In this document: one piece after another, positions 6,184 to 36,197 of the stretch
How the letters are laid out: each line of letters opens with the position of its first letter
Numbering within the stretch: the first letter of the stretch is position 1
From: Myxococcota bacterium
GTDB lineage: Bacteria; Myxococcota_A; Polyangia; HGW-17
Length of the DNA stretch: 36,197 nt
Assembly (NCBI GenBank): GCA_018821745.1
Contig: JAHJLU010000009.1
Location: forward strand, 1 to 36,197
Reading direction: 5' to 3'
Program-made: the position numbers and the translations under genes
The notes under the pieces: generated by a model
What the model was told of the DNA's origin: nothing
The model's database searches: none
Seen by the model: only the letters and a program-made list of their open reading frames with translations

Positions 6184-6256
6184 CCACCCCCCCCTTCTCG
6201 CAGCGTCCATTCCACTCGCTGTTGAATTATTTACCAAAATAGTAAATTCAATGATT

Positions 6257-6272: not shown

Positions 6273-6308
6273 GCACTAAGGCCCGTCGGGGGGCGCGAAA
6301 GGACACAA

Positions 6309-8006
6309 ATGGCACAAAAACGCATCGTTATTATTGGCGGCAGCGCCGCTGGACCCAAAACCGCCGCCCGCGCCAGGCGACTGGACCAGAGAGCCCTCAT
6401 CACCCTGATTGAACGGGGGCCCGACCTCTCCATGGCTTCCTGCGGATACCCCTATTACGTTGGTGGTGTCTTCGACTCACGAAACTGCCTCATCGAGACC
6501 CCCACGGGGGTCCCCAGAAACCCGGGCTTCTTCCTCAACGCGAAGAATATCATCGCCAGAGTCAACTGCGAAGTAACAACCATTGATCGCGCTCAGCGCA
6601 CCGTCACATGCCGGAACACCCTCACGGGCGAGGTCGATGTGGTCCCCTATGACAAGCTCATGATCGCCACGGGTTCATCCCCGAGACTTCCCCCCCTGGA
6701 GGGGATCGACCTTGAGGGCGTCACCACCCTCCAGTCCATGAAGGATGCCGACTACCTGCGTGCCATCCGGGATGAAAGGCGTGTAAAAAAGGCCATCATC
6801 ATCGGCGGGGGTCTCATCGGTATCGAGACCGCTGAAGCGCTCCAGCTCGCGGGCATCGAGATCACCATAGTGGAGCTCATGGACCAGCTCCTCCCCTTTT
6901 TGGACTGGCAGTTGGCCAAACTGGTGGAGAACCACCTCAAGTCCAAGGGCGTCAATGTCCTCCTGGGGAACGGTGTGGCCGCATTCACGGGAGAGGCTGG
7001 CACGCTCACGGGCGTCAAACTCGCCAGCGGCACAGAGCTTCCCTGTGAGCTGGCGGTTGTAGCCGTTGGCGTAAAGCCCAGCTCCCAACTGGCAAAGGCA
7101 GCGGGGCTGGAGATCGGTGTCACCGGCGGGATCAAGGTCAACCATTTCATGGGGACCACGGACCCCGATATTTACGCCGCGGGGGACTGTGTGGAGATCT
7201 GCAACTGCATCACCGGTGCCCAAACCTACGCCCCCATGGGTGATCTGGCCAACCTCCAGGGTCGGGTCGCTGCGGACAACATCATCCTCGGCGACAGCGT
7301 CCAGTTCTCGGGGACCATCAACACCGGGATTTGCAAAATATTCGACTTCGCCGCGGGGGCCACCGGACTCACGGAGGCTGCAGCCTTGAAAGCAGGCTAT
7401 GACGTGGAGACCGTGGTCAACGCGAGCCCTGACAAGCCGGGGTTTATGGGCGCAAAGTTGCTGGTCTCCAAAATGGTGGTGGACAGAAAAACAGGAAAGC
7501 TTCTGGGATATCAATGCACCGGTCCCGGTGACGTGTCCAAGCAGGTCGCCCAGGGGGCCATGGCCATCCGAGGCCAACTGACCGTCGCACAGATGATGGA
7601 TCTTGATCTGCCCTATGCGCCCCCCTTCTCTCTGGCAATTGACCACTTCATTGCCTCGGCTCACATAATGGACAACAAGCTCAAGGGCCGCATGAGCGGT
7701 ATCTCCACCCGACAGGTCCGGGAGATGCAGTGCAGGGGCGAGAAGGGAACCTTCTTCCTGGATGCCCGCGGTCCCGACGAGTTCGAGGCCATGCGCCTGG
7801 GAATCGGGGAGGTCCTCATCCCCCTGGGCGCCCTGAGGAAAAGACTGGGTGATCTGCCACCTGACAAAAATCACCCCATTGTCTGTTACTGCAAGATCTC
7901 CCTTCGGGGATATGAAGCCGCGCTCATTCTCATGGACGCAGGCTATACCAATGTTCGCGTCATGGAAGGCGGCATCATGGCCTGGCCCTTCCCACGGGAA
8001 AAATAG
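6309..8006 (+). CDS. FAD-dependent CoA-disulfide reductase/NADH oxidase family enzyme fused to a C-terminal rhodanese domain (persulfide/polysulfide reductase-like)
   Basis: ATG at 6309 follows AAAGGA. Motifs present: FAD fold IVIIGGSAAGPKTAARA, redox Cys in SMASCGYPYY, second dinucleotide fold AIIIGGGLIGIETAE, and rhodanese active-site loop CYCKISLRG near the C-terminus. Confidence 0.92.
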   Translation: MAQKRIVIIGGSAAGPKTAARARRLDQRALITLIERGPDLSMASCGYPYYVGGVFDSRNCLIETPTGVPRNPGFFLNAKNIIARVNCEVTTIDRAQRTVTCRNTLTGEVDVVPYDKLMIATGSSPRLPPLEGIDLEGVTTLQSMKDADYLRAIRDERRVKKAIIIGGGLIGIETAEALQLAGIEITIVELMDQLLPFLDWQLAKLVENHLKSKGVNVLLGNGVAAFTGEAGTLTGVKLASGTELPCELAVVAVGVKPSSQLAKAAGLEIGVTGGIKVNHFMGTTDPDIYAAGDCVEICNCITGAQTYAPMGDLANLQGRVAADNIILGDSVQFSGTINTGICKIFDFAAGATGLTEAAALKAGYDVETVVNASPDKPGFMGAKLLVSKMVVDRKTGKLLGYQCTGPGDVSKQVAQGAMAIRGQLTVAQMMDLDLPYAPPFSLAIDHFIASAHIMDNKLKGRMSGISTRQVREMQCRGEKGTFFLDARGPDEFEAMRLGIGEVLIPLGALRKRLGDLPPDKNHPIVCYCKISLRGYEAALILMDAGYTNVRVMEGGIMAWPFPREK

Positions 8007-12000: not shown

Positions 12001-14687
12001 ACGCCGGAAGACCCGCTCTCTGTCACCCCGTCACCAATCTCCCTGAGAAAGTCCCTGACTCTCTGGGGGGTCAGAGTGGCCGCGATGCCAAACTGCCGCG
12101 CAAGAACCGGACAGGACGCTAATCCCCGCTCCCAGTACCCCCATCGGTTGCCGAAAAGCTGCAGTGCCCTGACTCCCACTACCCTCTTGTGGTTGTAAAA
12201 TTCACCATCATCGGAGCAGATCCAGGTCGCACCCTCCATGATTGACGCAAGCTCTCCTCCATTTATCCACCCCTCCTTGAGACCCAGATCTATCCACTGG
12301 TAGACTCTCAGCGGAAGAATTTTATGATCTCTGGAGCTATACTCAATGTACCGAACAACCTCCATAAGACTAATATCCTTGTCGGTTTTTAAATTAAGCG
12401 CTCCAAATACCCGCTCCCCCAGGAGCTCTTTCATCCGTGGATCAGGGAAGAGATCAGGAGAATCACCGATGAGCACTTCCACCTCCAGGGACCGCCTGTA
12501 GAGTTCACCGGGTCGCTTGATCACTGTGCTGCCACTTAAGAGCCAACGAGAAGCCTCCAGGGAGAGCTCCAGCGCTTTTTCATTCAATTCTCCCAACAGG
12601 GCGGCCAGGGAGAGCGCCCATTGTGTGTTTCCAGGGCCATTGATCAACTGATCCTCGAAGAGGGAGAGCGCCGGCAATTGCGGCAGATCAAGCTCTCTGA
12701 GAGCCATTTTAATGTCCTGGGGGTAACGCTCAACACTCACCATGTGGAGATCTTCTTTAAACACCGTGGTCAGATGGGGACACAGGTTTTCCGGGGGGAC
12801 GCAACAGCTGCCCAGCGGTGCAAACGAACCATCGGAGCATTCAAGAAGAATCCCCGGCTCACGGAAAACCTTTTTGTGATGCTCCCTGGGAAGATTTCTC
12901 AGCGCCCAGGTGAGAAGCATGGCCGCTTCTTGCGGGGAATTTGCTGAACAGACCGCTCTGTATTTGGGTAAAAAGTGTTCCTGGACCAGGGTGAGGGGGT
13001 CAGGCCGCCCGATCCCCAGATGGCGCTCCAGCAGGGAAATGCACTGGGAAGGAATCCGCGGGTGGGGGATCCAGTCCATTCCCAGATCCGGCAGCTCTTT
13101 ATGGGTTACCAGCGCCGTGGGCACCTTGAAGGTCCCCAGGGTTGTGGGAAAAAGGGGAAGCTGCAGGAGAACGGCACAGTTTTCTTCAATGGAGAAAAGC
13201 TCCCGCTCGCTGGCAATGATCCACTGGAAAAATCTGTCCGGGGTGTCTCCCTCCCGAAACCGGACCAGGGTTTGGGGCCGGGCTATGAACGCTAAAACCT
13301 CGGTCATGGAGAGGTCGGGCAGTTTTTCTCTGACGGCAGGGTCGAGCAGAGAGAAAAAGCCGTCATGGGCCAGGCGGGAAGCCAGCGTGGTCTCCCCGAG
13401 AAGGGAGAGAGTCGCGACAGAGCACTTGCTGAGCCCGTGAGTAACCAACCGGGAGGCTCCATTGACAGCCAGCGGGAGAGAATCAAGGGGAGTTTTTCTT
13501 TCAAGACCCATCAGGAGATTCACAAAACCGGCACACTTCTCCACGCTGTTCAAAAAGGAGCGCTGATTCACAAGGCTCTCATCGTTCTCGACAAAGCGAC
13601 CAAGGAGTTCCTGTGTGCAGGGGATCATCCCGCTGAAGGTAAAAAGCGACCCAAATTCATTTGCGAATTGTTCTGCCGCCGGGGTCAGAGTGAGGCGGGC
13701 CACCAATTCCCATTCGGGGGACCCTTCCTCCATCAACGCAAGCAGCTCTCGACCCACAATTCCCTCACTGGCGGAGACCGTGACATTTCCCAGAGTGGGA
13801 AACAGCGGCAGGAGGTCAAGATTAAGCAGCTCTCCCTCCTTTACTGCAGTGACAAGTTCCGCGCGCCTCTCGACCAGAACTCCCAGAATCCCTGGATAGC
13901 AATCCAGGGGCAGGGGAGAACCATGGGCCACTTCATTGTGCAATAAAAATTGCTGGAGAAGCTTCACACATTTTACTACGGTAAAGGGGGCCACTGAGAG
14001 GGCCTTGAAATAGGCTCCCACGGACTCTTGATTACCCCCTCCATAGATGGGGACCAGTGGCTGGACGATGAAACGAAGGGGCTCCTCAACCAGATAGGTG
14101 CGCCCCGAATCAAAGGGAAGTGCAGGATCTCCGGGCGGTCGCAAGTTTCCCCTCGTGTCGGGGATGAGGGGTAATCGGAGGCACTGGTTCACATCTGTAC
14201 CGCTGAGGGTTGGGACTGATCCGGAAAGAAAATCCAGGATTTTCCAAAGATTGTTCACAACTTTGGGTAAAAATGGGTGGTCTTCTCCATTGGGCTTATT
14301 GCATGCCTCCTCCAGATGGGCGATGAAGGTCGCCGCAGTGAGCATAAGACACTGATCCGTAAGGTGCAGCTCTCGAACCAATCCGCCAGAGACCGATTCG
14401 GGATCAAGAAAATGGGTGGAAAAAAGCTCCCCATAAAGGGACTTCAGTTGATCTGAATCGCACGCGGCAAGAGTCGAGAGCGTATGAAGATCCCCCTTCT
14501 CACACAAAAAGGCCTCTGCCCCCGCAAGAATCTGGGCACTCTTTCCGTGGATCAGTGCTCTCTTCTCGTACAGAAACTGTATGACCGCATGGATATTCTC
14601 CGGTGTTGGGACAATAAGCAATTCAGCGGAACCGACCCTGGCCAGAGCACCGATGATGGCCGCAACCCCGACGCTCTCGACCCCCAT
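9048..14687 (-). CDS. Giant (1,879 aa) cytoplasmic repeat protein with C-terminal transglutaminase-like cysteine protease/transglutaminase core
   Basis: The frame is uninterrupted with coding-like G/C third positions. About 8 repeats of ~105 aa fill aa 170-950. The transglutaminase-core signature is GRGVCYELNSMAIELLRHLGIPSVAATGW...DHFFALAI (Cys1648 codon 9746..9744, His1684 codon 9638..9636). No signal peptide or TM segment is present. The ATG directly abuts the stop of the upstream GHKL ORF. Confidence 0.85.
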   Translation of the reverse strand: MGVESVGVAAIIGALARVGSAELLIVPTPENIHAVIQFLYEKRALIHGKSAQILAGAEAFLCEKGDLHTLSTLAACDSDQLKSLYGELFSTHFLDPESVSGGLVRELHLTDQCLMLTAATFIAHLEEACNKPNGEDHPFLPKVVNNLWKILDFLSGSVPTLSGTDVNQCLRLPLIPDTRGNLRPPGDPALPFDSGRTYLVEEPLRFIVQPLVPIYGGGNQESVGAYFKALSVAPFTVVKCVKLLQQFLLHNEVAHGSPLPLDCYPGILGVLVERRAELVTAVKEGELLNLDLLPLFPTLGNVTVSASEGIVGRELLALMEEGSPEWELVARLTLTPAAEQFANEFGSLFTFSGMIPCTQELLGRFVENDESLVNQRSFLNSVEKCAGFVNLLMGLERKTPLDSLPLAVNGASRLVTHGLSKCSVATLSLLGETTLASRLAHDGFFSLLDPAVREKLPDLSMTEVLAFIARPQTLVRFREGDTPDRFFQWIIASERELFSIEENCAVLLQLPLFPTTLGTFKVPTALVTHKELPDLGMDWIPHPRIPSQCISLLERHLGIGRPDPLTLVQEHFLPKYRAVCSANSPQEAAMLLTWALRNLPREHHKKVFREPGILLECSDGSFAPLGSCCVPPENLCPHLTTVFKEDLHMVSVERYPQDIKMALRELDLPQLPALSLFEDQLINGPGNTQWALSLAALLGELNEKALELSLEASRWLLSGSTVIKRPGELYRRSLEVEVLIGDSPDLFPDPRMKELLGERVFGALNLKTDKDISLMEVVRYIEYSSRDHKILPLRVYQWIDLGLKEGWINGGELASIMEGATWICSDDGEFYNHKRVVGVRALQLFGNRWGYWERGLASCPVLARQFGIAATLTPQRVRDFLREIGDGVTESGSSGVLSGDHALSRMLLSCYAWLGAREEGGPQNTPCILARAIADPQGAHVLVSSDNPRLLVSDTPTLEALFRDTGELFLTMDGPPEDQKHISRFYQLMKIRRLREAYTIEHNADQVCVTEKWAGHISSLVSQLDALWYCMPRIERKRDDLDEKGWAYHRIREVLDHRAVEVYSDLKVQYVLSGVGSVTQSVDAIYDRKQKVLLVDEKVLAEPQNHSSGLAQGLIPALYTGRSEEMLVDIIELVLPHRTRERMSAYMDLRHFPQAISAGSGEDHPLKGRIRDVLDYGIHQRLREGYPELRGADFTPWREAGLLSRITKQAEHDGDAAMATVALVLLEAAGVLSPGESLVEAMTAVLTAPTLNDIPPEVFGHLAPSLHELAPLPSMSVSAPHDDRPSLVMTDKEREDLADLMHTFGQKFGHRVTGDGLTRREEHQQRRGVEPMPDDPSWDHSTNVSTGPDDVMVSPQVHEEPSGRGWNLFGWISGKDKEKQNIVVYEDLPAWARKGANCLAPRENIPSQLWANHDTVGAISRQPPAVRLAYSPAALPSPYCYMIHVAAGAFHRGSQVWTSANVPRDLQGGITLHTTGARVLFEGRVMPGRSVLPVPLFSKLAAFPEVIGGEQVAIGVKQEGNIITMDVPSHGSVTIQYEVELYQVPSMGEETTAPSAFSDLTRPALKRMKLPIEVQAWLARMEKSGRSLWEKAMAVQEFVQSRYIYDLQFKRNEKVIRVMSNLKKGKGNHHLAILHAGKSRHHLGRGVCYELNSMAIELLRHLGIPSVAATGWLAQKGMIDYPDHFFALAIIPTATGFFPLPIEGSTGSMGAMSSVASVQSEMDHAPPLPLRPPIPRPGGVWSKQHVYNIPDRQKDADQFDSFVEMEHDRLRNDMATLAAIYEEARALGIEVPTETIKRIASLKGQKAEDQVMELHMALAPMVGGEAALSLLISIKTGAIFQVPELTEPILQLVRMGFVEAVPSPAYVVKPLLQDLSSKR

Positions 14688-17612
14688 CTACTTCACGTGT
14701 GATCGTGAAGCCACCTCGGCGTGGAGAAACACTCCCCCTCGAGGGCCCGGGGCAAAAAAGGCCCGCACCCCTTCCTCCATGGGAATAAACACCGCCTCCT
14801 TACCCGCGAGGGGTCGCCCTGCTGCATGCTCATCAGGCCAGATCGGCAGTTTGACCAGCTCCTTTCGCTCCGTGGATGAGAGCTCATCCCTCCCCTCCTC
14901 CAGCAGGCCATGGAGACGAAGCAGAACATCGGGCGTGAGCCGGGGACCGAATCCTTCCTGCATATCCCGCACGAAGGTAGTGAGCGACAGGGCATGAATA
15001 TTGAGCTGCCTCATGATGATTCCCGTGGGGGAATCTTCAGAAACCTGGGGACAAATGACGGGTCGAACTCCCTGGTAGAGTTGGGCCAGACCCCTGGAAA
15101 GGTCAGAGTCACCCGTCCTCAGGGCACCTTTCCGATCCGTAATGTTCCTTGCCAGCGGATAATAGAGACCGTCCATGGCCAAGAACACGGGCAAAGCCGC
15201 CAGACGTATCAGTAAATCACGGTTTTCTTCACAGGCGATGGTGAGGACCAGATCGAGCCGCTCTCTGGTCTGTATCAACTCGACCTCCTCGAGTGAACGA
15301 AGGGGCGGTTTTATCTCCCTGAGTTGTCCCGAAAGATCCTGGATCAGCCGGGCCGTCGTCAGGACATTAACCCCAAGTAAATCAATCAGGTGAGCGCCCT
15401 GGGGTAAATAAGCAGAGTCACCGCGGGCCTCCGGGTCAAATCGTGGATGGACAAAGGAACAAAACCCCTCATACAGTTGGCGCAACGGAGCACTTCCCCT
15501 GAACACACCGGAGTCCCCGATGCTCACCAGCCCACCGCCGGAATCCAGCACCAGGGGCAGTTTTTTCAACTCCTCCAGGATACTAGATCGCTGGGCTTTG
15601 TTGGAGGCCAGCTCATGGAGAAACAGGGTGTAGACAGCGTCCATGGTCTCCCATGATGGATTGTGGAGGAAATGTTCCCGGGGAATACCCGCGGTCCCAC
15701 CGGCCAGCAGCACCTTGAGGTGATCAAGGAGATCACGGACACCAAAGCTTTTTACGCCAAGGAATTTACCCACCTCCATCTGACGCTCGGACAGACGGGG
15801 ATCGGCAAAATAGATTGCAGTCCCCTCCTGCCAGAGGAGATCTCCCACCAGACGGGAAATTTCAGGGGTGGTCACTCTGAGCTCCCCAGGGCACCTCAGG
15901 ATACCCCGCTGGTCGGGAATGAGGGCACGGTCAGCCAGCTCCCGGTGGAGCGTCACCGGGATGGTTTTAAATACAGGGGCATTGAGCTCGTGGGGCAAGG
16001 GAAGAATATCCAGAAAGCCCAGCGCCCTCTCCAGAATTTCCGATTCTTCCCCACCCAGAGAGAGCAGAGTCTCCCGAGCCTTCAGCAGGAGCTCAGGGAC
16101 CTTGGAATTAATCCATCGATTCCAGGCGGAGTCGGAGTCTATGCGCTCCCTGTCAACGGGCACATCAAAGTGTCCCTGTAAAAAGAACCTCAGCCCGGAG
16201 TGCTCCCCCGTGGGGAGATAACTGTAGACGGTGGAATCCAAGGGTTCCAGCGGACAGGGCACTCCGGTATCGCTGCACCGAATACCAATCATAACGCCTG
16301 TTGAATCGGGTTTTCCTGCCTGTCTCTGGAGGCCGCTGCACGAATAGTCATTATCGCACACCAGATAATGGGAGACGGCTCCCGATGGCTCCTGCACAAT
16401 GGAAGATATCGCCCGCTCGCCACGATTAATTTCGTGAATCGCATGGGTCCCGGGTCCCCCCGCATCCTGATTAAGCTCCAGCTCGATATGATCAATACTC
16501 TTGAGGGTAAAGAGCACCACGGGATCAAGCGCACATGCTTTCTCGAAGAGAGCAGACGCGCTCCGGAACTGATCGTCCGGGTTTTTCAGGGGCAATAGCA
16601 GGAGTGTCCCATCCGGAGGATACCCCTCAGGCCTCATTGCGAGGGTTTTTGGAATAGAAACATCCACAATTTCAAATTGATAAGCTCCTGAATACAGTTG
16701 AGGCCGCTCTGTGACCTCGTAAATGGATTTGAACCCCACGCCGAAAAAGCCAATCTGGGATTTGCTTTTGGTGGTCTGCCCTATGGAGGTGATTCCCACC
16801 ACATCCTTGGTGTCAAAGGGAGTCCCGTTGTGCCACACCGCTATCTGATCACGGGCGAAGTAGAGCCTCCACACCGTAGCACCCGAGTCTTCTGCATTTT
16901 GCAAAAGCTCAATGAGAAAGTGACCGGGATCCGTGTACACCTTCTTCGCCAACAGCTCCTCGGCATTGGACTGGGAGACCGCCTTGGGAAAATTGGAGAT
17001 TACCTGCACCGCACCAAGAGCGAGCTCCCTGTGGCGTTCCCGGAACGCCTGGACCACCTGTTGTCCCACCTGCTGCGAGAACTGCTCCAGCTGCATGATG
17101 GCCTCGGCTGAGAGCTGGGCGAGATGGTCAACGGTCAGGGATTCCAGACTCCCGGACTCAAGCCGGGACCGACAGGTCAAGAGGAGCTTCGAGAGATATT
17201 CGTCCCGCTCCCCGGGAAAATTGTGCTTCAGTGCCCTGTCTATCAGACACATGGAGGAGAGCTGCCGCAATGGCATAACCCCCATGGCTGCCGTTAAAAT
17301 TTCACAGAGCGCTCCACGATGCTCACGGTGCTCATCCACCACCTCCAGCATGGTTCTGGTAATTTTATTGACCGCTGTCTCGGAGCGCTCCACCAGAAAT
17401 CTGGCAAAATTCTGCCGGTTCTCCTCGGTACCGAAGTATCCCATGGTAAGCAGATGCCCAGCCAGCCACGAGAGGGGAGAGCTGTCTCGCACCGTAGCGG
17501 CAAGCTCCAGAAGGTGTTCGGGAGACTCCCGGGTGAGTTGATCTGTGAGCCAGTTGATCTGCCCCTTGAGAGGGAGGGATGAAAAAACCTGGTCCGGTTG
17601 CGCTTGGGTCAT
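14688..17612 (-). CDS. Sacsin/NO-VEIN-type GHKL (Hsp90-like, HATPase_c_3-like) ATPase with C-terminal repeat modules
   Basis: Bergerat-fold motifs are present: ELLQNAEDS (16910..16884), VWHNGTPFDTKDVVGITSIGQTTK, IGFFGVGFKSIYEVTERPQLYSG, and the sacsin-type YSYLPTGEHSGLRFFLQGHFDVPVDRERI. I prefer the ATG at 17612 (GAAGGGA upstream). The track start at 17663 would add 17 aa and has no RBS. Confidence 0.88.
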   Translation of the reverse strand: MTQAQPDQVFSSLPLKGQINWLTDQLTRESPEHLLELAATVRDSSPLSWLAGHLLTMGYFGTEENRQNFARFLVERSETAVNKITRTMLEVVDEHREHRGALCEILTAAMGVMPLRQLSSMCLIDRALKHNFPGERDEYLSKLLLTCRSRLESGSLESLTVDHLAQLSAEAIMQLEQFSQQVGQQVVQAFRERHRELALGAVQVISNFPKAVSQSNAEELLAKKVYTDPGHFLIELLQNAEDSGATVWRLYFARDQIAVWHNGTPFDTKDVVGITSIGQTTKSKSQIGFFGVGFKSIYEVTERPQLYSGAYQFEIVDVSIPKTLAMRPEGYPPDGTLLLLPLKNPDDQFRSASALFEKACALDPVVLFTLKSIDHIELELNQDAGGPGTHAIHEINRGERAISSIVQEPSGAVSHYLVCDNDYSCSGLQRQAGKPDSTGVMIGIRCSDTGVPCPLEPLDSTVYSYLPTGEHSGLRFFLQGHFDVPVDRERIDSDSAWNRWINSKVPELLLKARETLLSLGGEESEILERALGFLDILPLPHELNAPVFKTIPVTLHRELADRALIPDQRGILRCPGELRVTTPEISRLVGDLLWQEGTAIYFADPRLSERQMEVGKFLGVKSFGVRDLLDHLKVLLAGGTAGIPREHFLHNPSWETMDAVYTLFLHELASNKAQRSSILEELKKLPLVLDSGGGLVSIGDSGVFRGSAPLRQLYEGFCSFVHPRFDPEARGDSAYLPQGAHLIDLLGVNVLTTARLIQDLSGQLREIKPPLRSLEEVELIQTRERLDLVLTIACEENRDLLIRLAALPVFLAMDGLYYPLARNITDRKGALRTGDSDLSRGLAQLYQGVRPVICPQVSEDSPTGIIMRQLNIHALSLTTFVRDMQEGFGPRLTPDVLLRLHGLLEEGRDELSSTERKELVKLPIWPDEHAAGRPLAGKEAVFIPMEEGVRAFFAPGPRGGVFLHAEVASRSHVK

Positions 17613-17806
17613 GGCATGTTTCCCTTCGTTGGAATATTTTCCCTCCGACAGTGACACAATCATTGTAAATTTTCAATGCTCCGCCCCCCGCGATCTCTTT
17701 TCGAAACCCCGCTGTTTGGCAAAACGCCCCCACGGTGCAGAGAGAAACCCGTTTTTTCCTTTTTATTTATTTGTTGTCAGCGATTTGTGACTTCTGAGGA
17801 GGCGGA

Positions 17807-29265: not shown

Positions 29266-30333
29266 TCAGAAGCGGAACATGGCGTTGACACCACAGAAGG
29301 TGCCCGTGCACATGGGGAAGAAGGTGAAGGTTTTTGCACTGGGGACATCGGCGGCGGGGGTACCCGCATCGGAGGAAGAGGAGTCCCCCGTAAGGAAAAT
29401 GGCGAGCACCGTGGCGGCGGCGGCAATAACCGCGACACCCAGGCCAATATCGGAATACAGCGCGGCATCCTCACCATCGGACTTCAGTGTTTTCAGGGTG
29501 TTTTGATTGGCACCGGTGACGTTCTTGTCGTCGTATTCGCTCTGCTTGTCCAGCGCCGTCTTGCCAAAGTAACCCATGGCCCCCAGGCCCAGCACTGTGG
29601 CGCCTACGCCTGTGTAAAACCACCATTTCTTGTAAAAGGGCGTGGCTACGGGAGCGGTCACGGGGTCTTTCTTCGGGGTGATCAGGGTGGGGTCTTTTTT
29701 GGGGTCTTTTTCGGGAATGACCACGGGGTCTTTTTTGGGGACCACAGCGGTGCTGGTGGAGACAAGGGTCAATTCAAGGAACTTCATCTCGCCCTTATCA
29801 ACAGTAACCTTGGTGGTCTGAGTCTTGGACCCCTCTTTTTTGATGACCAGCAGGTGGGTCCCCGGAGTCACATAGAGCACCACGGGGCTGACACCCTCGG
29901 GCTTACCGGAGAATGTGTCCACCAGAATCTCTGCACCTTCCGGGTTGGTGATCACCGAGATGCGACCCATGACCTTTTCTTTGGCCTTCTGCTCATCGAG
30001 GGCCTTCTCCATGGCGGCTATCTGCTTGACAACCTCTTCTTTGTAGACGGAGGAGGGGAATTTGGCCAAAAAACGCTTATAGAAGAAGACGGCCTTGTCG
30101 TAGTTTTTGAGGTATCGATGACACTGGGCAATGTTGAAATACATCTCGTATTTCTGACTCAGATCAAAGGCCTTCTCGTAAAGCTTCAGCGCCTTGGAGA
30201 ACTCGCTCTTGTCGTAGGCTTTCTCGGCCTTGTCATAGAACTCTTTGGCTTTCTTAATATTGGCTCCCATGGCCGAGAAGGAAAAACTGAGAAGTGTAAT
30301 AGTAATAATCGAGGAAATAAGTCTCTTTAGCAT
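29266..30333 (-). CDS. Secreted/membrane TPR + PEGA domain protein
   Basis: ATG at 30333 has AGGAG 6 nt upstream and lies 8 nt after the kinase stop. The protein has a signal peptide, TPR-like helices (YDKAEKAYDKSEFSKALKLYEKA..), a PEGA domain (ISVITNPEGAEILVD), a (K)KDP-repeat linker and C-terminal hydrophobic helices. Confidence 0.85.
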   Translation of the reverse strand: MLKRLISSIITITLLSFSFSAMGANIKKAKEFYDKAEKAYDKSEFSKALKLYEKAFDLSQKYEMYFNIAQCHRYLKNYDKAVFFYKRFLAKFPSSVYKEEVVKQIAAMEKALDEQKAKEKVMGRISVITNPEGAEILVDTFSGKPEGVSPVVLYVTPGTHLLVIKKEGSKTQTTKVTVDKGEMKFLELTLVSTSTAVVPKKDPVVIPEKDPKKDPTLITPKKDPVTAPVATPFYKKWWFYTGVGATVLGLGAMGYFGKTALDKQSEYDDKNVTGANQNTLKTLKSDGEDAALYSDIGLGVAVIAAAATVLAIFLTGDSSSSDAGTPAADVPSAKTFTFFPMCTGTFCGVNAMFRF

Positions 30334-30341
30334 TGTTGCTC

Positions 30342-31940
30342 CTACCACATTACTTTGATGGTGCCTTCACCGATCATCGTATTTTTAGGCACCATGGGTT
30401 TCATCACCGTGACCACCTTCATAACCATGGGTGGCTTGGGTTTCATGGGCGTTCTCACATGGTGCCCGTGGGTCTTTACGAGAGGCTGTAATACCACTAT
30501 TTTATCAGACTCTACAGTGAATTTTTGCGGTGCGCCAAATTTTGCAAGGGTGGGTTTCAGGATCACGCTGGAACCATCCTTCAGCCGCACGGTGAAGGGA
30601 GTCTTCATTATCTTCGCCTTTTGCGCGCCAACGGTGATGGAGACCTCAGTTTTCACGCTGGTACTGGTGGAGACGCTGAGCGCAAATTCCTTCACGACTT
30701 TCATGGAGACCATGGGGGGAACCATGACCGGGACCATGGGGACGGTCATGACTGCGGCCTGCATGGGGGCACTAGTGGCCGGTGTTGTTTTTTTGAATTC
30801 AACCTTCCCCTCCCCCTCTCTCGATTTCATATAGAAGTAGCCGCCGACCAGGATGGCGATGATTGCCACCACTCCAGCGGCAATGAAAACTCCCTTTTTA
30901 CCCGGTCCGGAGATGCTCTCTCCTTCAACCTGCGTCCCCGAGGGAGAGGACATCCCCGCTGTGGAACCCGCGCCTTTGACAGCGAGGGTTGCGTTGAGGG
31001 CCGAGGCGGCACTTTTTGTCCCGGCAAAACTGGAATTTATCATTACATCCGAGAGATTCTCCAGCGCGGCGTCAAAAGCGCGGGAGAAATCTCCAGCGGT
31101 CTGGTATCGATCGTCGGGATCTTTTGCCAGGCTTTTTTCGATAACCTGCCACACAAAGGCCGGGAAATCGGGAAGATATTCGAAGATGGGGGTGGGCGGC
31201 TCCGCGATATGCATCACCAGCACTTTGGGAACAATGTCCGCCTCGATGGGGAGTCGCTCCGACAGCATCTGGTAGACAATGATCCCCAGCGCGTAAATAT
31301 CGGACCGGGCAGAGATAGCCTTGACATCCCCCGCCGCCTGCTCGGGGCACATGTAGGAGGGTGTCCCCATGATAAGCCCCGTGGCGGTCTTGTGCTTGGC
31401 CCCAAAATCCGGCTCCAGCAGCTTGGCCACGCCGAAGTCCAGCACTTTGATGCTGGAGGATCCGTCGCCGGGGTCGGTGATGAAGATGTTATCCGGTTTC
31501 AGGTCGCGGTGCACAATGCCCACAGAATGCGCCGCATCAAGGGCGCTGCAGATTTGCCGCAGGAGCCTGGCTGTCATTTCCAGGCTCATCTTGCGGTGAT
31601 CGAGCATAAAGCCGGAGAGGTCAGCCCCTTCGAGGTACTCCATGGTGAGATAGAGCCTCCCGTCGGGGAGTTTGCCAAAATCGAACACCTGAATAATGTT
31701 CGGATGGCTGATCTTATTGACGGCCTTGGCTTCGGAGAGAAACCGGTCCGCCATTTCCGGGTTGGCACTCAGGGAGGCGATGAGAACCTTGATGGCGACT
31801 TTTCGCCCAATCTGGGGATGCTCGCCCAGGTATACCTGGCCCATGGCACCTTCGCCTAAAAGCTCGATTACTTCGTAATTACCTACGGTTGTACCAATAA
31901 GAGGATCATTCTGTTCCATGTGGACACCATTTTGCATCAC
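30342..31940 (-). CDS. Hanks-type Ser/Thr protein kinase with one TM helix and a Met/His-rich periplasmic PEGA-like domain
   Basis: Kinase motifs present: GEGAMGQVYLG, VAIKVL, HRDLKPDNIF, DFGVAK, GTPSYMCPEQ. The TM segment is VFIAAGVVAIIAILVGGYFY. The start is ambiguous (GTG 31940, ATG 31937 or ATG 31919). Confidence 0.93.
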   Translation of the reverse strand: MMQNGVHMEQNDPLIGTTVGNYEVIELLGEGAMGQVYLGEHPQIGRKVAIKVLIASLSANPEMADRFLSEAKAVNKISHPNIIQVFDFGKLPDGRLYLTMEYLEGADLSGFMLDHRKMSLEMTARLLRQICSALDAAHSVGIVHRDLKPDNIFITDPGDGSSSIKVLDFGVAKLLEPDFGAKHKTATGLIMGTPSYMCPEQAAGDVKAISARSDIYALGIIVYQMLSERLPIEADIVPKVLVMHIAEPPTPIFEYLPDFPAFVWQVIEKSLAKDPDDRYQTAGDFSRAFDAALENLSDVMINSSFAGTKSAASALNATLAVKGAGSTAGMSSPSGTQVEGESISGPGKKGVFIAAGVVAIIAILVGGYFYMKSREGEGKVEFKKTTPATSAPMQAAVMTVPMVPVMVPPMVSMKVVKEFALSVSTSTSVKTEVSITVGAQKAKIMKTPFTVRLKDGSSVILKPTLAKFGAPQKFTVESDKIVVLQPLVKTHGHHVRTPMKPKPPMVMKVVTVMKPMVPKNTMIGEGTIKVMW

Positions 31941-32447: not shown

Positions 32448-33083
32448 ATGCGCACAATCCTCATTATCTCATTATTTTTCGGACTGCTGACCTCATGCAA
32501 GAAAACTTCCGATACGAAAAATCAAGAGCCCGTGAAAAAACCCGTGCTCAAAACCCAAATGGACAAAGAGCCTCCCAAGCTCGCAGAGAAACCCAAGGTG
32601 GCAACACCGAAAAAGGTCGAGCCACCGAAAAAAATCTCCATCGTCCCCGCTGACGCCGTGGAGGTCAAGACACCCATTGTTCACAAAACCTTCACTTTGA
32701 ACAAAGAGCCCATGATCGCCATGGAATCCCTCACCATGGAAGCGGCTAAAAAACTCCGTGGCTACAACAAAAAAGTTCCTCTGGGCATCACCGTTGTGTT
32801 CAAAAAGAATGGTGACATCCACAAAATCGAAATCTCCTCCCACAGCGAGACTCCCGACTTCATCACCCGCATCGAGAAGGAGTGGATCCCGAAATTCAAC
32901 GACCTGCTCCACACAAAACCCATAGTGGGACCCAAGGGGAAAGCCATCGACGCCCTCTCCGAGGCCACCATGTCCACGGATGCCATCCTGAAGACCGTTG
33001 ATCTCATGAGGAACGCCTACCTGAAAAACTTTGTAAAGACCGGGAAAAAGGCAAAAAAGAAGGGGAAAAAAGGCGGCAAGTAG
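32448..33083 (+). CDS. Lys/Pro-rich lipoprotein of unknown function
   Basis: ATG at 32448 follows GGAGA. The lipobox is FFGLLTSC. A PK-rich linker and a polybasic tail (KKAKKKGKKGGK) are present. Confidence 0.7.
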   Translation: MRTILIISLFFGLLTSCKKTSDTKNQEPVKKPVLKTQMDKEPPKLAEKPKVATPKKVEPPKKISIVPADAVEVKTPIVHKTFTLNKEPMIAMESLTMEAAKKLRGYNKKVPLGITVVFKKNGDIHKIEISSHSETPDFITRIEKEWIPKFNDLLHTKPIVGPKGKAIDALSEATMSTDAILKTVDLMRNAYLKNFVKTGKKAKKKGKKGGK

Positions 33084-33090
33084 AGTAATG

Positions 33091-33453
33091 TCACTTCACC
33101 GTAAAGGTGAGCTCAGTCCCGTGCTTTCCCGACTTTGAACATTCCCGCCACATTTTAATCATTGCCTTTTTTGCCGTAATTTTCACTTTAAAGGCTGCAA
33201 AATATTTTCCCCTGCCCTTTTTTGACCAACTGATCTTCGAGACCTTCTTGACCCCGATCCATTTGAAATTCACCTCGTCGATATCGAGAACACAGGGGTG
33301 ATGGATCCATTTGATACTGGCAGTAACCGAGACCGTATCTCCCACCTTCACGGTGGTCTTTTCCGCCTTGAGCTTCTGGATGCACGCCTCGGAGGTGGCG
33401 GGCAGTGTAATAAGTCCGAACAGGGTGATAAGAGCAACAAGGGTATGTTTCAT
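33091..33453 (-). CDS. Small secreted protein of unknown function
   Basis: ATG at 33453 has GGAGA 7 nt upstream. The signal peptide is MKHTLVALITLFGLITLPATSEA. The mature part is beta-rich with 3 Cys. Confidence 0.6.
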   Translation of the reverse strand: MKHTLVALITLFGLITLPATSEACIQKLKAEKTTVKVGDTVSVTASIKWIHHPCVLDIDEVNFKWIGVKKVSKISWSKKGRGKYFAAFKVKITAKKAMIKMWRECSKSGKHGTELTFTVK

Positions 33454-33531: not shown

Positions 33532-34845
33532 TTAATAGATTAGTCGCAGAACGACTCGGGCACCATGGCTCAGGGGGAGGCTCCCGGCGGCAAGGTTGAT
33601 GAGCGAGTATATTGCGCGGAACTGGTACTTTGTCTTGCCCCAAATGAACCAGGTGAGACCGGCCTCCAGCTCGTCGTCAATAGAGTCACGGGGATCGCGG
33701 TCCGTGTGGTAGTGGTACCCCGTGTCAAACCGGATACTCCTGTACCGGAGCCGGAGCATCATGGAGAACACTTGACCGTCATACATTCCGTAGCGCTGCC
33801 GTGACCCCACATCATATCCTTCAAAGAGTGACGCGAAGTGGAGATCGGAATCAGATGTGGTGATGGCCCCTGAGTACATCGGGTGAAGCACCAGGTGAGC
33901 GCCTCCGATCTTGATACGGTGGCGAATACCCAGAGAGAGCGCCGGAATAAACGACTGGTCATGGATTTTGTAGGCGCCTGAGAGTTCGGCCTCATAGGAG
34001 GTCGACTCGCTGCCAAGAAGAGGCCCCATGGCATACAGGGAGAGGAAGTTGGTGGTGAGGTTCTCCGGGTATGCAGCGGGCAAGGTGGTCGTGTCAGCGG
34101 GTTGCCCGTCGAGACGCGAGTACTGAAACAGGTTCATGAGGCTGATCTTGTGGGGCCTGAAATGCTTAATATTGAGGACCGCCCCGGCCATGAGATAATC
34201 ACCGTACCCTGCACTACACAGGCGTTTCCAGCTCTTGCGCTTCTCATAATATTGTTCGTAACCGCAGCCCAGGGTCTCCCGGGTGAGCTCCGTGGCCATG
34301 ACTCCCCCAAAAAGTTCAAAGGTTACTTTTTTGGAGAGCTTCTTCGAGACCTTGACGGCGTCGAAGAAGTTATCGAGGATGGACTGGGTCCCAAAGACCA
34401 GATTCTGCCGGCCAAGCTTCACGTTCATGTCCCACTTGTCCATGGAGAGGGAGAGGCCACGCAACTGGGGGACCGTCTCCATGCCATTTTTGTAGGAGAT
34501 AGCCCAGGCATTGCAGTTGGCCACGTCCCTGCGCTGCTTCACTTCTCCCTCAAAGTAGAGGTTGAGCCAGCTCATGGAGTCATCAGGGGTGTAGGTCACA
34601 ATGGACCTGACCGCACCAAATCCATTGAACACATTATTGGTCTGGGGAGGATCCACCGAGATATCCTTCTCGCGGACGAAATATTGTCCGGTCCTGAATT
34701 CGATCCCCCAGTAGAGTTCTTTTTCCCCTACCTGTCGGAGATTTGCCGGCAACTGGGAGGGGCAATTTTTTGCAAAGGCAGGCGCCGCTGTCAGCAGCAC
34801 AAAAAACAGCACACTCCATCCTTGATTGAACGGGATTCTCCTCAT
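33532..34845 (-). CDS. Putative outer-membrane beta-barrel protein
   Basis: The signal peptide ends AAPAFA|KN. Alternating hydrophobic beta-strand patterns run throughout. The C-terminus ends in an aromatic residue (VVLRLIY). ATG at 34845; the track TTG at 34854 is an alternative start. Confidence 0.7.
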   Translation of the reverse strand: MRRIPFNQGWSVLFFVLLTAAPAFAKNCPSQLPANLRQVGEKELYWGIEFRTGQYFVREKDISVDPPQTNNVFNGFGAVRSIVTYTPDDSMSWLNLYFEGEVKQRRDVANCNAWAISYKNGMETVPQLRGLSLSMDKWDMNVKLGRQNLVFGTQSILDNFFDAVKVSKKLSKKVTFELFGGVMATELTRETLGCGYEQYYEKRKSWKRLCSAGYGDYLMAGAVLNIKHFRPHKISLMNLFQYSRLDGQPADTTTLPAAYPENLTTNFLSLYAMGPLLGSESTSYEAELSGAYKIHDQSFIPALSLGIRHRIKIGGAHLVLHPMYSGAITTSDSDLHFASLFEGYDVGSRQRYGMYDGQVFSMMLRLRYRSIRFDTGYHYHTDRDPRDSIDDELEAGLTWFIWGKTKYQFRAIYSLINLAAGSLPLSHGARVVLRLIY

Positions 34846-34866
34846 GGGCAACAACTCCGGGCTCTC

Positions 34867-35415
34867 TCAGGTGGTTTCACCAGGCTCAGCGGGTCCTTCG
34901 AAAATGGCGGTGTTGGGGCAGAACTCAAGCTCCACACACTCTCCACAGTGGGAACAGAGGGTCTGATCAATGCGGGCACGGTTCTCGTCGTTGAAGATCT
35001 CGATGGCCGTTACCCCGGGGCCCTGCTCGGAGACCGGCGCATGGCAGATGTCGTAGCAGGACATGCAGTTCACGCAGGTGTCGAGGTTCACCAGATACTT
35101 ATAGGGGTGCACCCCGTCGTCATCGGGCTGCTGGATGATACTATTGTATTCACAGAGGAAAAAACATTTCCCACAGCGCAGGCACTTATCCTGATTCACA
35201 ATGAGGGCTCTACGCTCCCCCGCGGGAATGGTGATGGCTTTTTTGCCGCACTGACTCACACATATTCCACAACCCGTACACAATTCAGGGGTGATAAAAT
35301 AGGGATACAGTGACTCGCAGTCACCCTGGCACTCTTCTTTGATACTGCCGCAGGAGAGGGCTTTCGCTGCCAGGAACGTGCCACCCGCCACCGTAAAAAA
35401 GGCTCGACGATCCAT
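34867..35415 (-). CDS. Tat-exported polyferredoxin, four [4Fe-4S] binding motifs (NrfC/HybA-like size)
   Basis: The twin-arginine signal is MDRRAFFTVAGG. The four cluster motifs are CTGCGICVSQC, CLRCGKCFFLC, CVNCMSCYDIC and CSHCGECVELEFCP. No CxxCH heme motif is present. The start overlaps the upstream stop (TAATG at 35417..35413). Confidence 0.88.
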   Translation of the reverse strand: MDRRAFFTVAGGTFLAAKALSCGSIKEECQGDCESLYPYFITPELCTGCGICVSQCGKKAITIPAGERRALIVNQDKCLRCGKCFFLCEYNSIIQQPDDDGVHPYKYLVNLDTCVNCMSCYDICHAPVSEQGPGVTAIEIFNDENRARIDQTLCSHCGECVELEFCPNTAIFEGPAEPGETT

Positions 35416-36095
35416 TACTTGACTCCGGTCAGAAAATCGGACTGGATAATCTCCCTGGTGTGGAGAATATAGGTGAGCACCGTGTAGGTGGTGTAGGCGG
35501 CGTTGTGCACCACGCTGCCCTGATATTCTTCAAAGGTGGCGCCCGTCTCCGCGTCGACCATATCGAGCCTGTCTGTGAGAGCCAGGAGAACCGTGGGGGG
35601 ATCGGCAAGGATCCCGTAGAGGGTGTCCCAGTCATCCAGGGTAAAGGCCTCAGAGTCGGTGGTGTTGTTGTCGAGACCCTTGAAAAACTCTCCGGCCGTG
35701 GTGCCCGCGGGATGGAAGACGTGGACATACTCGAGGGAGGGGTCAAACACCAGGATAAACTTGATGGCAGCGCAGGCGCCATCGTGACATCCAACGCCCG
35801 TGTTCACCAGGCGGGTGTACCCGATGAGGGTATCCTGGGCATCGTAGATGAAATCCAGAGTGCCGGACCCGGGGAGTACATAGGGCGCCTCCTCGGTCAG
35901 ACGCACATCGGAGATGGTGAAGCTCTGTTTTTGCTCCGCCGAGGGCAGCGCGGTCCCCAGGTCAGCCTTTTCCGTGGTGGTGAGGCTCTGGATTGGATCC
36001 TTGGTGCTGCCTGAATCATCGCAACCTGCGGGGAACCATGCAAAAACACTGATCAGAAATGCGAGGGTTGTGGAACGACAAACGTGAGATATCAT
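35415..36095 (-). CDS. Lipoprotein with FMN-binding (FMN_bind/NqrC/RnfG-like) domain and flavinylation motif
   Basis: ATG at 36095 has GGAGG 6 nt upstream. The lipobox is WFPAGC. D-A-E-T-G-A-T (35555..35535) matches the ApbE flavinylation consensus D-[AG]-x-[ST]-[SG]-A-[ST]. The upstream segment GYTRLV...IKFILVFDPSLEYVHVFHPAGTTAGEF resembles the FMN_bind beta core. Confidence 0.7.
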   Translation of the reverse strand: MISHVCRSTTLAFLISVFAWFPAGCDDSGSTKDPIQSLTTTEKADLGTALPSAEQKQSFTISDVRLTEEAPYVLPGSGTLDFIYDAQDTLIGYTRLVNTGVGCHDGACAAIKFILVFDPSLEYVHVFHPAGTTAGEFFKGLDNNTTDSEAFTLDDWDTLYGILADPPTVLLALTDRLDMVDAETGATFEEYQGSVVHNAAYTTYTVLTYILHTREIIQSDFLTGVK

Positions 36096-36197
36096 TGGGG
36101 CCTCCGTCGTGGGGTAGTTGGACGCACACCCATTTTCTATAGCATCCATCGTTTGGTTTGGGAATCGGAATTCTTGATCAGGACTCAGGATTTTCCA

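What the first reader, a model, noticed from the sequence alone, without database searches (positions are those of the whole stretch)
33532..36095. Heme-free envelope redox module: FMN-binding lipoprotein, Tat polyferredoxin and outer-membrane barrel
Three tightly packed minus-strand genes make up the cluster. The first two overlap as TAATG, and the next follows after a 12-22-nt gap (depending on which start codon is used). They encode (i) a lipoprotein with an FMN_bind-like domain and a flavinylation motif, (ii) a twin-arginine-signal protein with four CxxCxxCxxxC-type [4Fe-4S] motifs and no membrane partner of the NrfD/PsrC type, and (iii) a 437-440-aa predicted beta-barrel with a C-terminal aromatic residue. 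Established: Tat exports folded Fe-S proteins to the periplasm; extracytosolic FMN-binding domains are flavinylated by ApbE and act in extracytosolic electron transfer; porin-cytochrome modules (Mtr/Pcc type) pair a periplasmic redox protein with an outer-membrane barrel. Inference: this cluster could be a flavin/Fe-S analogue of a porin-cytochrome conduit, or a periplasmic reductase system feeding a barrel-associated partner. No CxxCH heme motif occurs in any of the three. A small secreted 3-Cys protein (33091..33453) follows 78 nt downstream.
Basis: partly seen in the sequence, partly recalled or inferred. Interest (0 to 1): 0.75.

Follow-up and report, generated by a model that had tools for sequence, protein, structure and literature searches.

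The report
Heme-free flavin/iron-sulfur outer-envelope redox module
Three always-linked genes in uncultured myxobacteria encode an iron-sulfur "wire" lipoprotein, a lipoprotein from an undescribed family that probably carries a covalently bound flavin next to a cysteine pair, and an 18-stranded outer-membrane channel, which together look like a new cytochrome-free way of doing redox chemistry in the cell envelope.

Summary
Three minus-strand genes (35415-36095, 34867-35415, 33532-34845) encode three proteins:
- g1, a lipoprotein with an exact ApbE flavinylation motif (DAETGAT).
- g2, a twin-arginine-exported protein with four [4Fe-4S] cysteine motifs.
- g3, a protein modelled as an 18-stranded beta-barrel.

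The same gene order is found in all 15 related loci that have sequence upstream of g3. The flanking genes differ between these loci, and all are Myxococcota MAGs.

- g1 is not a detectable FMN_bind (PF04205) member. It belongs to an unclassified family of about 155 representatives. The motif Thr is present in 154/154 and a nearby Cys pair in 152-153/154.
- This family is often fused to TlpA/AhpC-type thioredoxin domains. It lies next to apbE in two operon contexts and is fused to ApbE once.
- g2 also carries an invariant lipobox Cys, so it is probably a Tat lipoprotein.
- g3 resembles AlgE/OprD substrate channels, not the 26-stranded MtrB.
- A true FMN_bind lipoprotein lies convergently at 32448-33083.

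Best reading: an Fe-S to flavin/dithiol chain on the periplasmic side, acting at a specific outer-membrane channel. A Mtr-like wire through the barrel is unlikely but not excluded. No apbE and no inner-membrane partner lie nearby. The function is inferred, not shown.

The parts
35415..36095 (-). g1: Sec lipoprotein (226 aa) from an unclassified Cys-pair/Thr family, a putative ApbE substrate
   Evidence: ORF and RBS. Lipobox Cys25 is invariant. No Pfam or NCBIfam hit. The family comes from a profile search: 157 hits at E <= 1e-3. Family invariants.
35535..35555 (-). g1 flavinylation-type motif D181-A-E-T-G-A-T187
   Evidence: Exact match to D-x-x-[S/T]-G-A-[S/T]. The Thr is present in 154/154 family members.
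35772..35789 (-). g1 Cys103-x4-Cys108 loop (GCHDGAC)
   Evidence: Invariant in the orthologues. Across the family the second Cys is present in 153/154 and a paired Cys in 152/154.
34867..35415 (-). g2: Tat-exported, probably lipidated, 4x[4Fe-4S] polyferredoxin (182 aa)
   Evidence: Pfam Fer4 x4. Best PDB relatives are the MvhB and FwdF polyferredoxins. 19 conserved Cys in 15 orthologues.
35350..35415 (-). g2 twin-arginine signal (M-D-R-R-A-F) ending in a lipobox-like ALS-C22
   Evidence: RR-x-F and Cys22 are invariant in the alignment and in 15 orthologues.
33532..34845 (-). g3: 18-stranded outer-membrane beta-barrel (437 aa), AlgE/OprD-like, with a highly conserved Cys-containing loop L4
   Evidence: AF2 model with 18 strands. 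Foldseek: AlgE 1e-14, TM 0.6, followed by Occ/OprD and MOMP. In loop 184-216, 17/33 residues are invariant. C-terminal Tyr.
33091..33453 (-). Accessory gene: 120-aa secreted basic 3-Cys protein, present in only part of the clade
   Evidence: 58-62% identical in L003 and L005. Present in the window, L015, L003, L005 and L032 only.
32448..33083 (+). Convergent neighbour: RnfG-like FMN_bind lipoprotein (motif DALSEAT), a possible electron-input partner
   Evidence: PF04205, E = 1.7e-9. TIGR01947 rnfG, 2.6e-8. An orthologue sits at the same place in L003/L019 and L015.

Best explanation
This is a conserved three-protein redox module on the periplasmic side of the outer envelope.

g2 is loaded with four [4Fe-4S] clusters in the cytoplasm, exported folded by Tat and probably lipid-anchored at Cys22. 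It serves as a short one-electron wire.

g1 is a Sec lipoprotein. An ApbE encoded elsewhere attaches FMN covalently to Thr187. The flavin sits next to an invariant Cys-x4-Cys pair, so g1 converts one-electron Fe-S chemistry into two-electron flavin/dithiol chemistry.

g3 is an 18-stranded, AlgE/OprD-type specific channel. It delivers or removes a small substrate, or presents conserved disulfide-bearing loops, at the place where the two lipoproteins act.

Shown: gene content, conservation, signal and motif features, the barrel fold, and the family's link to ApbE and thioredoxin-fold domains.

Inferred: flavinylation, the g2-to-g1 contact, the direction of electron flow, the substrate (a disulfide, polysulfide or peroxide-like compound is most plausible), and the inner-membrane electron source.
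For: - The g1-g2-g3 order and orientation are kept in 15/15 loci with upstream sequence, across at least four different flanking contexts. Genes overlap or sit only a few nucleotides apart.
- g2 has an invariant Tat motif, an invariant lipobox Cys and 16 invariant cluster Cys. It is nearest to the polyferredoxins MvhB and FwdF.
- g1 carries the exact ApbE motif. Across the family the Thr is present in 154/154 and the Cys pair in 152-153/154.
- 25/71 diverse family members are fused to TlpA/AhpC-type thioredoxin domains.
- P0075 combines a g1-like domain, a Trx domain (WCPDC) and ApbE.
- The operon AhpC/TSA lipoprotein - g1-like - ApbE occurs in two different genomic contexts.
- g3 has 18 strands and its best structural matches are substrate channels. 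Its most conserved part is a long Cys-bearing loop.
- A bona fide FMN_bind protein next door implies that the genome uses ApbE.
Against: - No apbE lies in the window or within about 10 kb of any of the 15 orthologous modules.
- No inner-membrane quinol dehydrogenase or NapH/NrfD partner is encoded nearby.
- g1 has no detectable homology to any proven flavinylated domain.
- The sister clade has TTAT or STAT instead of TGAT, and other family members have TAPT, TMAT, SGET or TRVT. ApbE acceptance of these variants is untested.
- The g1 model is only moderately confident (pLDDT 71) and matched nothing in the PDB, so the proximity of the Cys pair to Thr187 is unverified.
- No complex modelling was possible.
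Confidence: 0.5

Rival explanations
1. A trans-outer-membrane electron conduit analogous to MtrCAB/Pcc. Part of the polyferredoxin or the flavoprotein sits inside the barrel and passes electrons to or from extracellular or insoluble partners.
For: - The module has a two-lipoprotein-plus-barrel architecture with strict co-inheritance.
- A four-cluster Fe-S wire is present.
- The barrel's N-terminal periplasmic segment is conserved and includes an invariant Cys28.
- From my own knowledge, small barrels can work with a fused redox domain, as in the Cyc2-type fused cytochrome-porins.
Against: - The barrel has 18 strands, and its best matches are the AlgE, OprD/Occ and MOMP channels. MtrB has 26 strands (my knowledge).
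- A 2x[4Fe-4S] ferredoxin domain is unlikely to fit in an 18-strand lumen.
- Nothing indicates surface exposure.
- No inner-membrane feeder is encoded.
- Relatives of g1 pair with thioredoxin-fold proteins rather than with metal reductases.
Confidence: 0.12
2. An envelope thiol-redox or oxidative-stress maintenance system. The Fe-S/flavin pair supplies reducing power to thioredoxin-like or peroxiredoxin-like clients, independently of DsbD. The barrel is a client or an anchor whose disulfide-bearing loops are serviced, not a substrate channel.
For: - The g1 family is fused or adjacent to TlpA/AhpC-TSA domains.
- g3 has four invariant Cys and the small accessory protein has three.
- Rubrerythrin-type genes lie beside the module in two clades.
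- There is a precedent for hybrid thioredoxin/flavinylation systems: the DsbD-DUF3570 clusters (PMC8238504).
Against: - The module itself, and its 10-kb flanks, contain no thioredoxin-fold gene.
- The rubrerythrin-like neighbours of the two clades are not the same gene.
- Strict linkage to one dedicated barrel suggests a specific transport or docking role.
Confidence: 0.2
3. g1 is not a flavoprotein. The invariant Cys pair and Thr bind a metal or serve a structural role. g1 would then be an accessory or plug lipoprotein for the barrel (LptE-like), or a maturation or docking factor for g2.
For: - No HMM or fold link to known flavinylated domains.
- The motif departs from the ApbE consensus in 44% of the family, including the sister clade.
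- No apbE lies near any of the modules.
Against: - The exact 7-residue ApbE motif is conserved in this clade.
- The Thr is invariant across 154 sequences, even where its neighbouring residues vary.
- Gene adjacency to ApbE recurs, and there is a g1-like/Trx/ApbE fusion.
Confidence: 0.15

Closest known systems
ApbE-dependent extracytosolic flavinylated electron-transfer systems (Meheust et al. 2021, PMC8238504; Huang et al. 2024, PMC10979944), in particular the DsbD / thioredoxin-like / DUF3570 / DUF4266 / ApbE clusters
   Same: - Extracytoplasmic lipoprotein with a D-x-x-[S/T]-G-A-[S/T] site.
- Family-level association with ApbE and thioredoxin-fold proteins.
- Co-encoded protein of about 420-440 aa, which DUF3570 also is.
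- Small secreted Cys protein nearby.
- Cytochrome-free.
   Different: - g1 is not FMN_bind, DUF2271 or DUF3570 by HMM.
- g3 has no [S/T]GA[S/T] site and no DUF3570 hit.
- The small protein lacks the DUF4266 C-terminal CXC.
- No DsbD or ApbE is encoded in the cluster.
- The module includes a Tat polyferredoxin, which is not part of those systems.
Porin-cytochrome conduits (MtrCAB, PioAB/MtoAB, Geobacter Pcc)
   Same: Periplasm-side redox protein, lipoprotein and outer-membrane barrel encoded as one tight cluster.
   Different: - No heme motif.
- 18-stranded AlgE/OprD-like barrel rather than a 20-26-stranded sheath.
- No evidence of surface exposure or of an inner-membrane quinol oxidase.
Tat-exported periplasmic ferredoxins NapG / NrfC / HybA, and the archaeal polyferredoxins MvhB / FwdF
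   Same: Twin-arginine signal and four [4Fe-4S] Cys motifs. The best sequence matches are MvhB (4e-19) and FwdF (1e-18).
   Different: - No NapH or NrfD membrane partner and no catalytic subunit.
- Lipobox Cys after the Tat signal.
- Two extra conserved N-terminal Cys.
- NrfC/PsrB-type match only at 3e-6.
AlgE alginate exporter and OprD/Occ substrate-specific channels
   Same: 18-stranded monomeric barrel fold (Foldseek E = 1e-14 to 1e-10, TM about 0.6) with long conserved loops.
   Different: - No sequence-family membership: no Pfam hit, and the NCBIfam Opr match is only E = 0.026.
- Four invariant Cys.
- Genetically locked to two redox lipoproteins and not to polysaccharide or nutrient-uptake genes.

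Membership tests
FMN_bind domain (Pfam PF04205; NqrC/RnfG/PplA type) | Significant match to the PF04205 profile or to solved FMN_bind proteins | tested here: not met
   - g1 has no Pfam hit at E <= 1.
- FMN_bind is not among the families listed for 71 family members scanned at E <= 5 (the 25 families matching most members are shown).
- Profiles A1 and A7 find no NqrC, RnfG or PplA in the PDB sequences.
- hhalign against the two FMN_bind sequences available gives probability 3%.
- Foldseek on the g1 model finds nothing at E < 0.1.
ApbE flavinylation substrates (any fold) | Motif D-x-x-[S/T]-G-A-[S/T] ending in the modified Thr/Ser | tested here: met
   D181-A-E-T-G-A-T187. The motif's D, TGAT core and the Cys pair are invariant in the 7 close homologues. 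Motif definition from PMC12052999.
ApbE flavinylation substrates (any fold) | Extracytosolic location | tested here: met
   Signal peptide with an invariant lipobox Cys. No dedicated predictor was available, so this was judged from the sequence.
ApbE flavinylation substrates (any fold) | An ApbE flavin transferase in the same cluster or genome | tested here: inconclusive
   - None in the window or within about 10 kb in 15 orthologous loci. Whole genomes could not be searched.
- At family level there is positive evidence: apbE lies directly downstream of g1-like genes in L012 and in L028/L029, and P0075 is a fusion with ApbE.
ApbE flavinylation substrates (any fold) | Covalently bound FMN demonstrated | not testable with these tools
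   This needs UV-fluorescent SDS-PAGE or mass spectrometry.
Porin-cytochrome conduit (Mtr/Pcc) | Multiheme c-type cytochromes (CxxCH) | tested here: not met
   No CxxCH in g1, g2 or g3.
Porin-cytochrome conduit (Mtr/Pcc) | Wide sheath-type barrel (MtrB has 26 strands) that encloses a redox protein | tested here: not met
   18 strands. The top 50 structural matches are mostly AlgE and OprD/Occ-type substrate channels, with MOMP, chitoporin and general porins also listed. The MtrB strand number is from my own knowledge.
Porin-cytochrome conduit (Mtr/Pcc) | Redox proteins and barrel co-encoded and co-inherited | tested here: met
   15/15 loci.
NapG/NrfC-type periplasmic Fe-S subunits | Tat signal plus four [4Fe-4S] motifs | tested here: met
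NapG/NrfC-type periplasmic Fe-S subunits | Adjacent integral-membrane partner (NapH, NrfD/PsrC) or catalytic subunit | tested here: not met
   None among the called genes of the window or of L001, L003, L005, L007, L009 and L032.
AlgE / OprD 18-stranded channels | 18-stranded monomeric barrel fold | tested here: met
   AF2 model plus Foldseek, E = 1.4e-14, TM 0.60.
AlgE / OprD 18-stranded channels | Sequence-family membership (Pfam/NCBIfam models) | tested here: not met
   No Pfam hit. The NCBIfam Opr porin match is E = 0.026, 13.6 bits against a cut-off of 150.
DsbD-DUF3570-DUF4266-ApbE clusters | DUF3570 protein with two [S/T]GA[S/T] sites, and DUF4266 with a C-terminal CXC | tested here: not met
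   g3 has no DUF3570 hit and no such motif. The 120-aa protein has no Pfam hit and no CXC (family description).

The most novel reading that the evidence does not exclude
The module is a cytochrome-free route for moving electrons to or across the outer membrane. A Tat-exported Fe-S wire feeds a new class of ApbE-flavinylated protein, whose flavin is coupled to a redox-active Cys pair. This protein is docked on or in a dedicated 18-stranded barrel. The result would be a flavin/Fe-S counterpart of porin-cytochrome complexes, and g1 would found a new ApbE substrate family with a flavin-dithiol centre outside the cytoplasm.
Probability: 0.12. Interest if true: 0.9.

Novelty: new variant of a known kind. 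Interest (0 to 1): 0.62.

Why it matters
Known electron-transfer routes beyond the inner membrane rely on cytochromes, on thioredoxin-like proteins or on FMN_bind-type flavoproteins. This module would add three things:
- A family of about 155 representatives, unclassified in Pfam and NCBIfam. It has an invariant flavinylation-type Thr and Cys pair, is linked to ApbE and to thioredoxin-fold domains, and is a candidate new ApbE substrate class able to bridge one-electron and two-electron chemistry.
- A Tat-exported, lipid-anchored polyferredoxin with no membrane or catalytic partner.
- A dedicated outer-membrane channel genetically locked to both.

If the function is confirmed, it would show how anaerobic, uncultured Myxococcota carry out envelope redox chemistry without heme. 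It would also widen the search space for ApbE targets.

Tried and rejected
- An exact-sequence look-up of g2 in the contig index found nothing, so the window's upstream context stays unknown.
- The Foldseek search with the g1 model gave no meaningful match. The model is only moderately confident.
- Profile searches of PDB sequences with the close (A1) and family-wide (A7) g1 alignments gave only noise.
- phmmer of the window's FMN_bind protein against PDB gave nothing, so no FMN_bind alignment could be built from solved structures.
- The third homologue search, with the FMN_bind domain alone, returned nothing and was wasted.
- hhalign of the g1 family against the two FMN_bind sequences available was not significant. 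This is inconclusive because the template is so thin.
- Regular expressions for ApbE motifs failed to find the ApbE fusion. The probe served only as a pointer; the ApbE assignment rests on the Pfam hit.
- The promoter and terminator scan was at background level.
- The neighbouring 554-aa and 701-aa proteins were tested for homology to the AhpC/TSA lipoprotein of the ApbE operons, and none was found.
- DUF3570 identity for g3 was rejected.
- Two literature searches found no paper describing this gene cluster.
Full report
**1. What is in the sequence**

The last 3 kb of the window carry three tightly packed minus-strand ORFs.

- g1 runs 35415-36149 as a mechanical ORF. The ATG at 36095 is preceded by GGAGG, and it gives an N-terminus that matches the homologues (226 aa).
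- g2 is 34867-35415 (182 aa). Its ATG overlaps the g1 stop as TAATG.
- g3 is 33532-34845 (437 aa from the ATG, which has GGAG 9 nt upstream), or 440 aa from a TTG at 34854. The gap after g2 is 21 or 12 nt.
- A 120-aa secreted 3-Cys ORF (33091-33453) follows 78 nt downstream.
- None of the three proteins contains CxxCH.

**2. The polyferredoxin, g2**

- Pfam finds four Fer4 stretches (E = 8.8e-16).
- Across 15 orthologues the M-x-R-R-x-F twin-arginine motif is conserved, as are all 16 cluster cysteines. These form three CxxCxxCxxxC motifs and one CxxCxxCx5C motif. Two further N-terminal cysteines are also conserved.
This makes g2 a probable Tat-exported lipoprotein.
- A profile of g2 hits the archaeal polyferredoxins MvhB (4e-19) and FwdF (1e-18) best. 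NrfC/PsrB-type subunits score only 3e-6. g2 therefore looks like a stand-alone Fe-S wire rather than a CISM beta subunit.
- No NapH- or NrfD-type gene is called in the window or in the flanks of the related loci.

**3. The barrel, g3**

- g3 has no Pfam hit and only a noise-level NCBIfam Opr hit.
- An AlphaFold2 model built from 15 homologues (pLDDT 72.5, pTM 0.72) has 18 strands.
- Foldseek against the PDB gives the alginate exporter AlgE (E = 1.4e-14, TM 0.60), then the OprD/Occ channels and MOMP, which are substrate channels and porins.
- The C-terminal residue is Tyr.
- Four cysteines are invariant. The most conserved segment of the protein is the long loop 184-216, with 17 of 33 residues invariant, including Cys194 and Cys210. 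This pattern fits a loop that shapes a specific pore or docking site.
- g3 is therefore not the wide sheath type of barrel that Mtr conduits use. MtrB has 26 strands, by my own knowledge.

**4. The lipoprotein, g1**

- g1 has an invariant lipobox Cys followed by D-[DE], and an invariant GC-x4-C loop.
- Its motif D181-A-E-T-G-A-T187 matches the seven-residue ApbE recognition motif D-x-x-[S/T]-G-A-[S/T] exactly (motif from PMC12052999).
- It is nevertheless not a detectable FMN_bind domain:
  - No Pfam or NCBIfam hit at E <= 1.
  - No FMN-binding protein found in the PDB with a close or a family-wide profile.
  - hhalign is not significant.
  - The moderately confident model (pLDDT 71) matches nothing in the PDB.
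- A profile search of 1.8 billion cluster representatives placed g1 in a wider, unclassified family, with 157 hits at E <= 1e-3.
- In 155 aligned domains the motif Thr is present in 154/154, the second loop Cys in 153/154 and a paired Cys in 152/154. The residues before the Thr vary: [ST]GAT in 87, then TAPT, TAAT, TMAT, SGET, TRVT and others.
- Pfam scans of 71 diverse members showed 25 fused to TlpA/AhpC-TSA-type thioredoxin domains and a few fused to c-type cytochrome-like regions.
- One member, P0075, combines a g1-like domain, a thioredoxin domain (WCPDC) and ApbE.
- Two g1-like genes with the TAPT motif lie in the operon AhpC/TSA lipoprotein - g1-like - ApbE, in two different genomic contexts (L012 and L028/L029).

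It also ties the family to thiol-based redox chemistry.

**5. Conservation of the module**

- Close homologues are rare: 7 for g1 and 15 for g3 among 5.8 billion clustered proteins.
- All come from Myxococcota MAGs labelled Polyangia, Haliangium or Kofleriaceae.
- In every locus with sequence upstream of g3 (15 distinct loci), g1-g2-g3 occur in the same order and orientation, usually overlapping. The flanking genes fall into several unrelated arrangements.
- The module is therefore a functional unit and not a chance adjacency.
- The 120-aa protein is confined to a subclade (window, L015, L003, L005, L032). The convergent FMN_bind lipoprotein is found only in the window, L015 and L003.
- The sister clade keeps the module but has D-A-x-[ST]-T-A-T in g1.
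- No apbE is present in the window or within about 10 kb of any module. Whole genomes could not be searched.
- The neighbouring bona fide PF04205 protein (32448-33083) does imply that this organism uses ApbE.

**6. Mechanism**

The best-supported reading is a periplasm-side chain. A Tat-exported, lipid-anchored four-cluster wire (g2) exchanges electrons with a lipid-anchored protein (g1) that carries a covalent flavin beside a Cys pair. From my own knowledge, a flavin placed next to a C-x4-C disulfide resembles the flavoprotein disulfide reductases. The chain would act at a dedicated 18-stranded channel (g3) that passes a small substrate or offers conserved disulfide-bearing loops.

The family's repeated pairing with thioredoxin and peroxiredoxin folds points to disulfide, polysulfide or peroxide-type chemistry. 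Still open:
- the electron source;
- the direction of flow;
- the substrate;
- the membrane to which each lipoprotein is anchored.

In E. coli an Asp at position +2, as g1 has, means retention in the inner membrane (my knowledge). That rule is not established for Myxococcota.

I put 0.5 on this overall picture. The rivals are:
- a thiol-maintenance variant in which the barrel is a client or an anchor, 0.2;
- g1 not being a flavoprotein, 0.15;
- the Mtr-like conduit, 0.12.

**7. Comparison with known systems and novelty**

The nearest described systems are the flavinylation-associated extracytosolic electron-transfer clusters of Meheust et al. (PMC8238504). The closest among them is the hybrid DsbD / thioredoxin / DUF3570 / DUF4266 / ApbE cluster. 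It also combines a protein of about 420 aa and a small secreted Cys protein with flavinylation. None of its defining families is present here, and that cluster contains no polyferredoxin.

The ApbE substrate classes listed in the papers I read are FMN_bind, NqrB/RnfD, DUF2271, DUF3570 and the flavodoxin-like and FMN-reductase-like classes. None of the corresponding Pfam models matches g1. Two literature searches found no description of this gene cluster.

I rate it a new variant of a known kind, namely extracytosolic flavin-based electron transfer, built around a putatively new substrate family and an unusual set of partners.

**8. Limits**

- No multimer modelling was possible.
- No dedicated signal-peptide predictor was available.
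- The model coordinates could not be read.
- The MAGs could not be searched genome-wide.
- The window ends 48 nt upstream of the longest g1 ORF, so the module's own upstream neighbours are unknown.

In the closest long relative (L032), a 554-aa Cys-rich protein and a 701-aa PPC-domain protein precede g1 on the same strand.

Noticed in passing
window 32448-33083 (+): A bona fide FMN_bind (PF04205, RnfG-like) lipoprotein with the motif DALSEAT (E in place of the usual G) lies convergent on the cluster, with stop codons 7 nt apart. Orthologues sit at the same place in L003/L019 and L015. It may be the electron-input partner, and it implies an ApbE in the genome.
   Followed up: partly
window 33091-33453 (-): The 120-aa secreted, lysine-rich 3-Cys protein is more conserved (58-62% identity) than g1 (40-44%) in the same relatives. 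It matches no Pfam family or PDB sequence. It occurs only in the TGAT subclade.
   Followed up: partly
L012 1933-5271; L028 3362-6684; L029 366-2706: A recurrent operon, AhpC/TSA-domain lipoprotein -> g1-like lipoprotein (TAPT motif) -> ApbE, is found in two different genomic contexts. In L012 the ApbE starts with a Tat-like signal. The g1-like protein is the only plausible ApbE substrate in this operon.
   Followed up: partly
protein P0075 (620 aa): A triple fusion of a g1-like domain (motif TRVT), a thioredoxin-like domain (WCPDC) and ApbE.
   Followed up: yes
L007 1-8625; also L020, L024, L027: In the TTAT/STAT clade the module lies directly downstream, on the same strand, of complex-I/Mbx-like membrane genes (Proton_antipo_M, NADHdh, Oxidored_q6, Complex1_30kDa and Complex1_49kDa). 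These are followed by a 611-aa Fer4/Pyr_redox_2 protein, a rubrerythrin-like gene and a LamG lipoprotein.
   Followed up: no
L032 4787-8664; L001, L003, L005, L017 upstream regions: A Cys-rich protein of about 555 aa with no Pfam hit, and a protein of about 700 aa with a PPC domain, always flank the module upstream in the window's clade. They are on the same strand in L032 and divergent in the other loci.
   Followed up: partly
window 29266-31940 (-): A Ser/Thr protein kinase and a TPR/PEGA protein recur 2-8 kb from the module in 7 loci of both clades. This may be regional synteny or a regulatory link.
   Followed up: no
window 6255-8006 (+): A CoA-disulfide-reductase-like flavoprotein with a C-terminal rhodanese domain (Pyr_redox_2 + Pyr_redox_dim + Rhodanese). 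This hints at sulfur or persulfide metabolism in this organism.
   Followed up: no
window 9048-17663 (-): Two very large adjacent ORFs of 1879 aa (weak transglutaminase-core hit) and 991 aa (sacsin-type domain), of unknown function.
   Followed up: no
L030 1025-4398: A 370-aa member of the g1-like family lies directly after a 714-aa DUF5916 protein. This may be another pairing of the domain with a large envelope protein.
   Followed up: no
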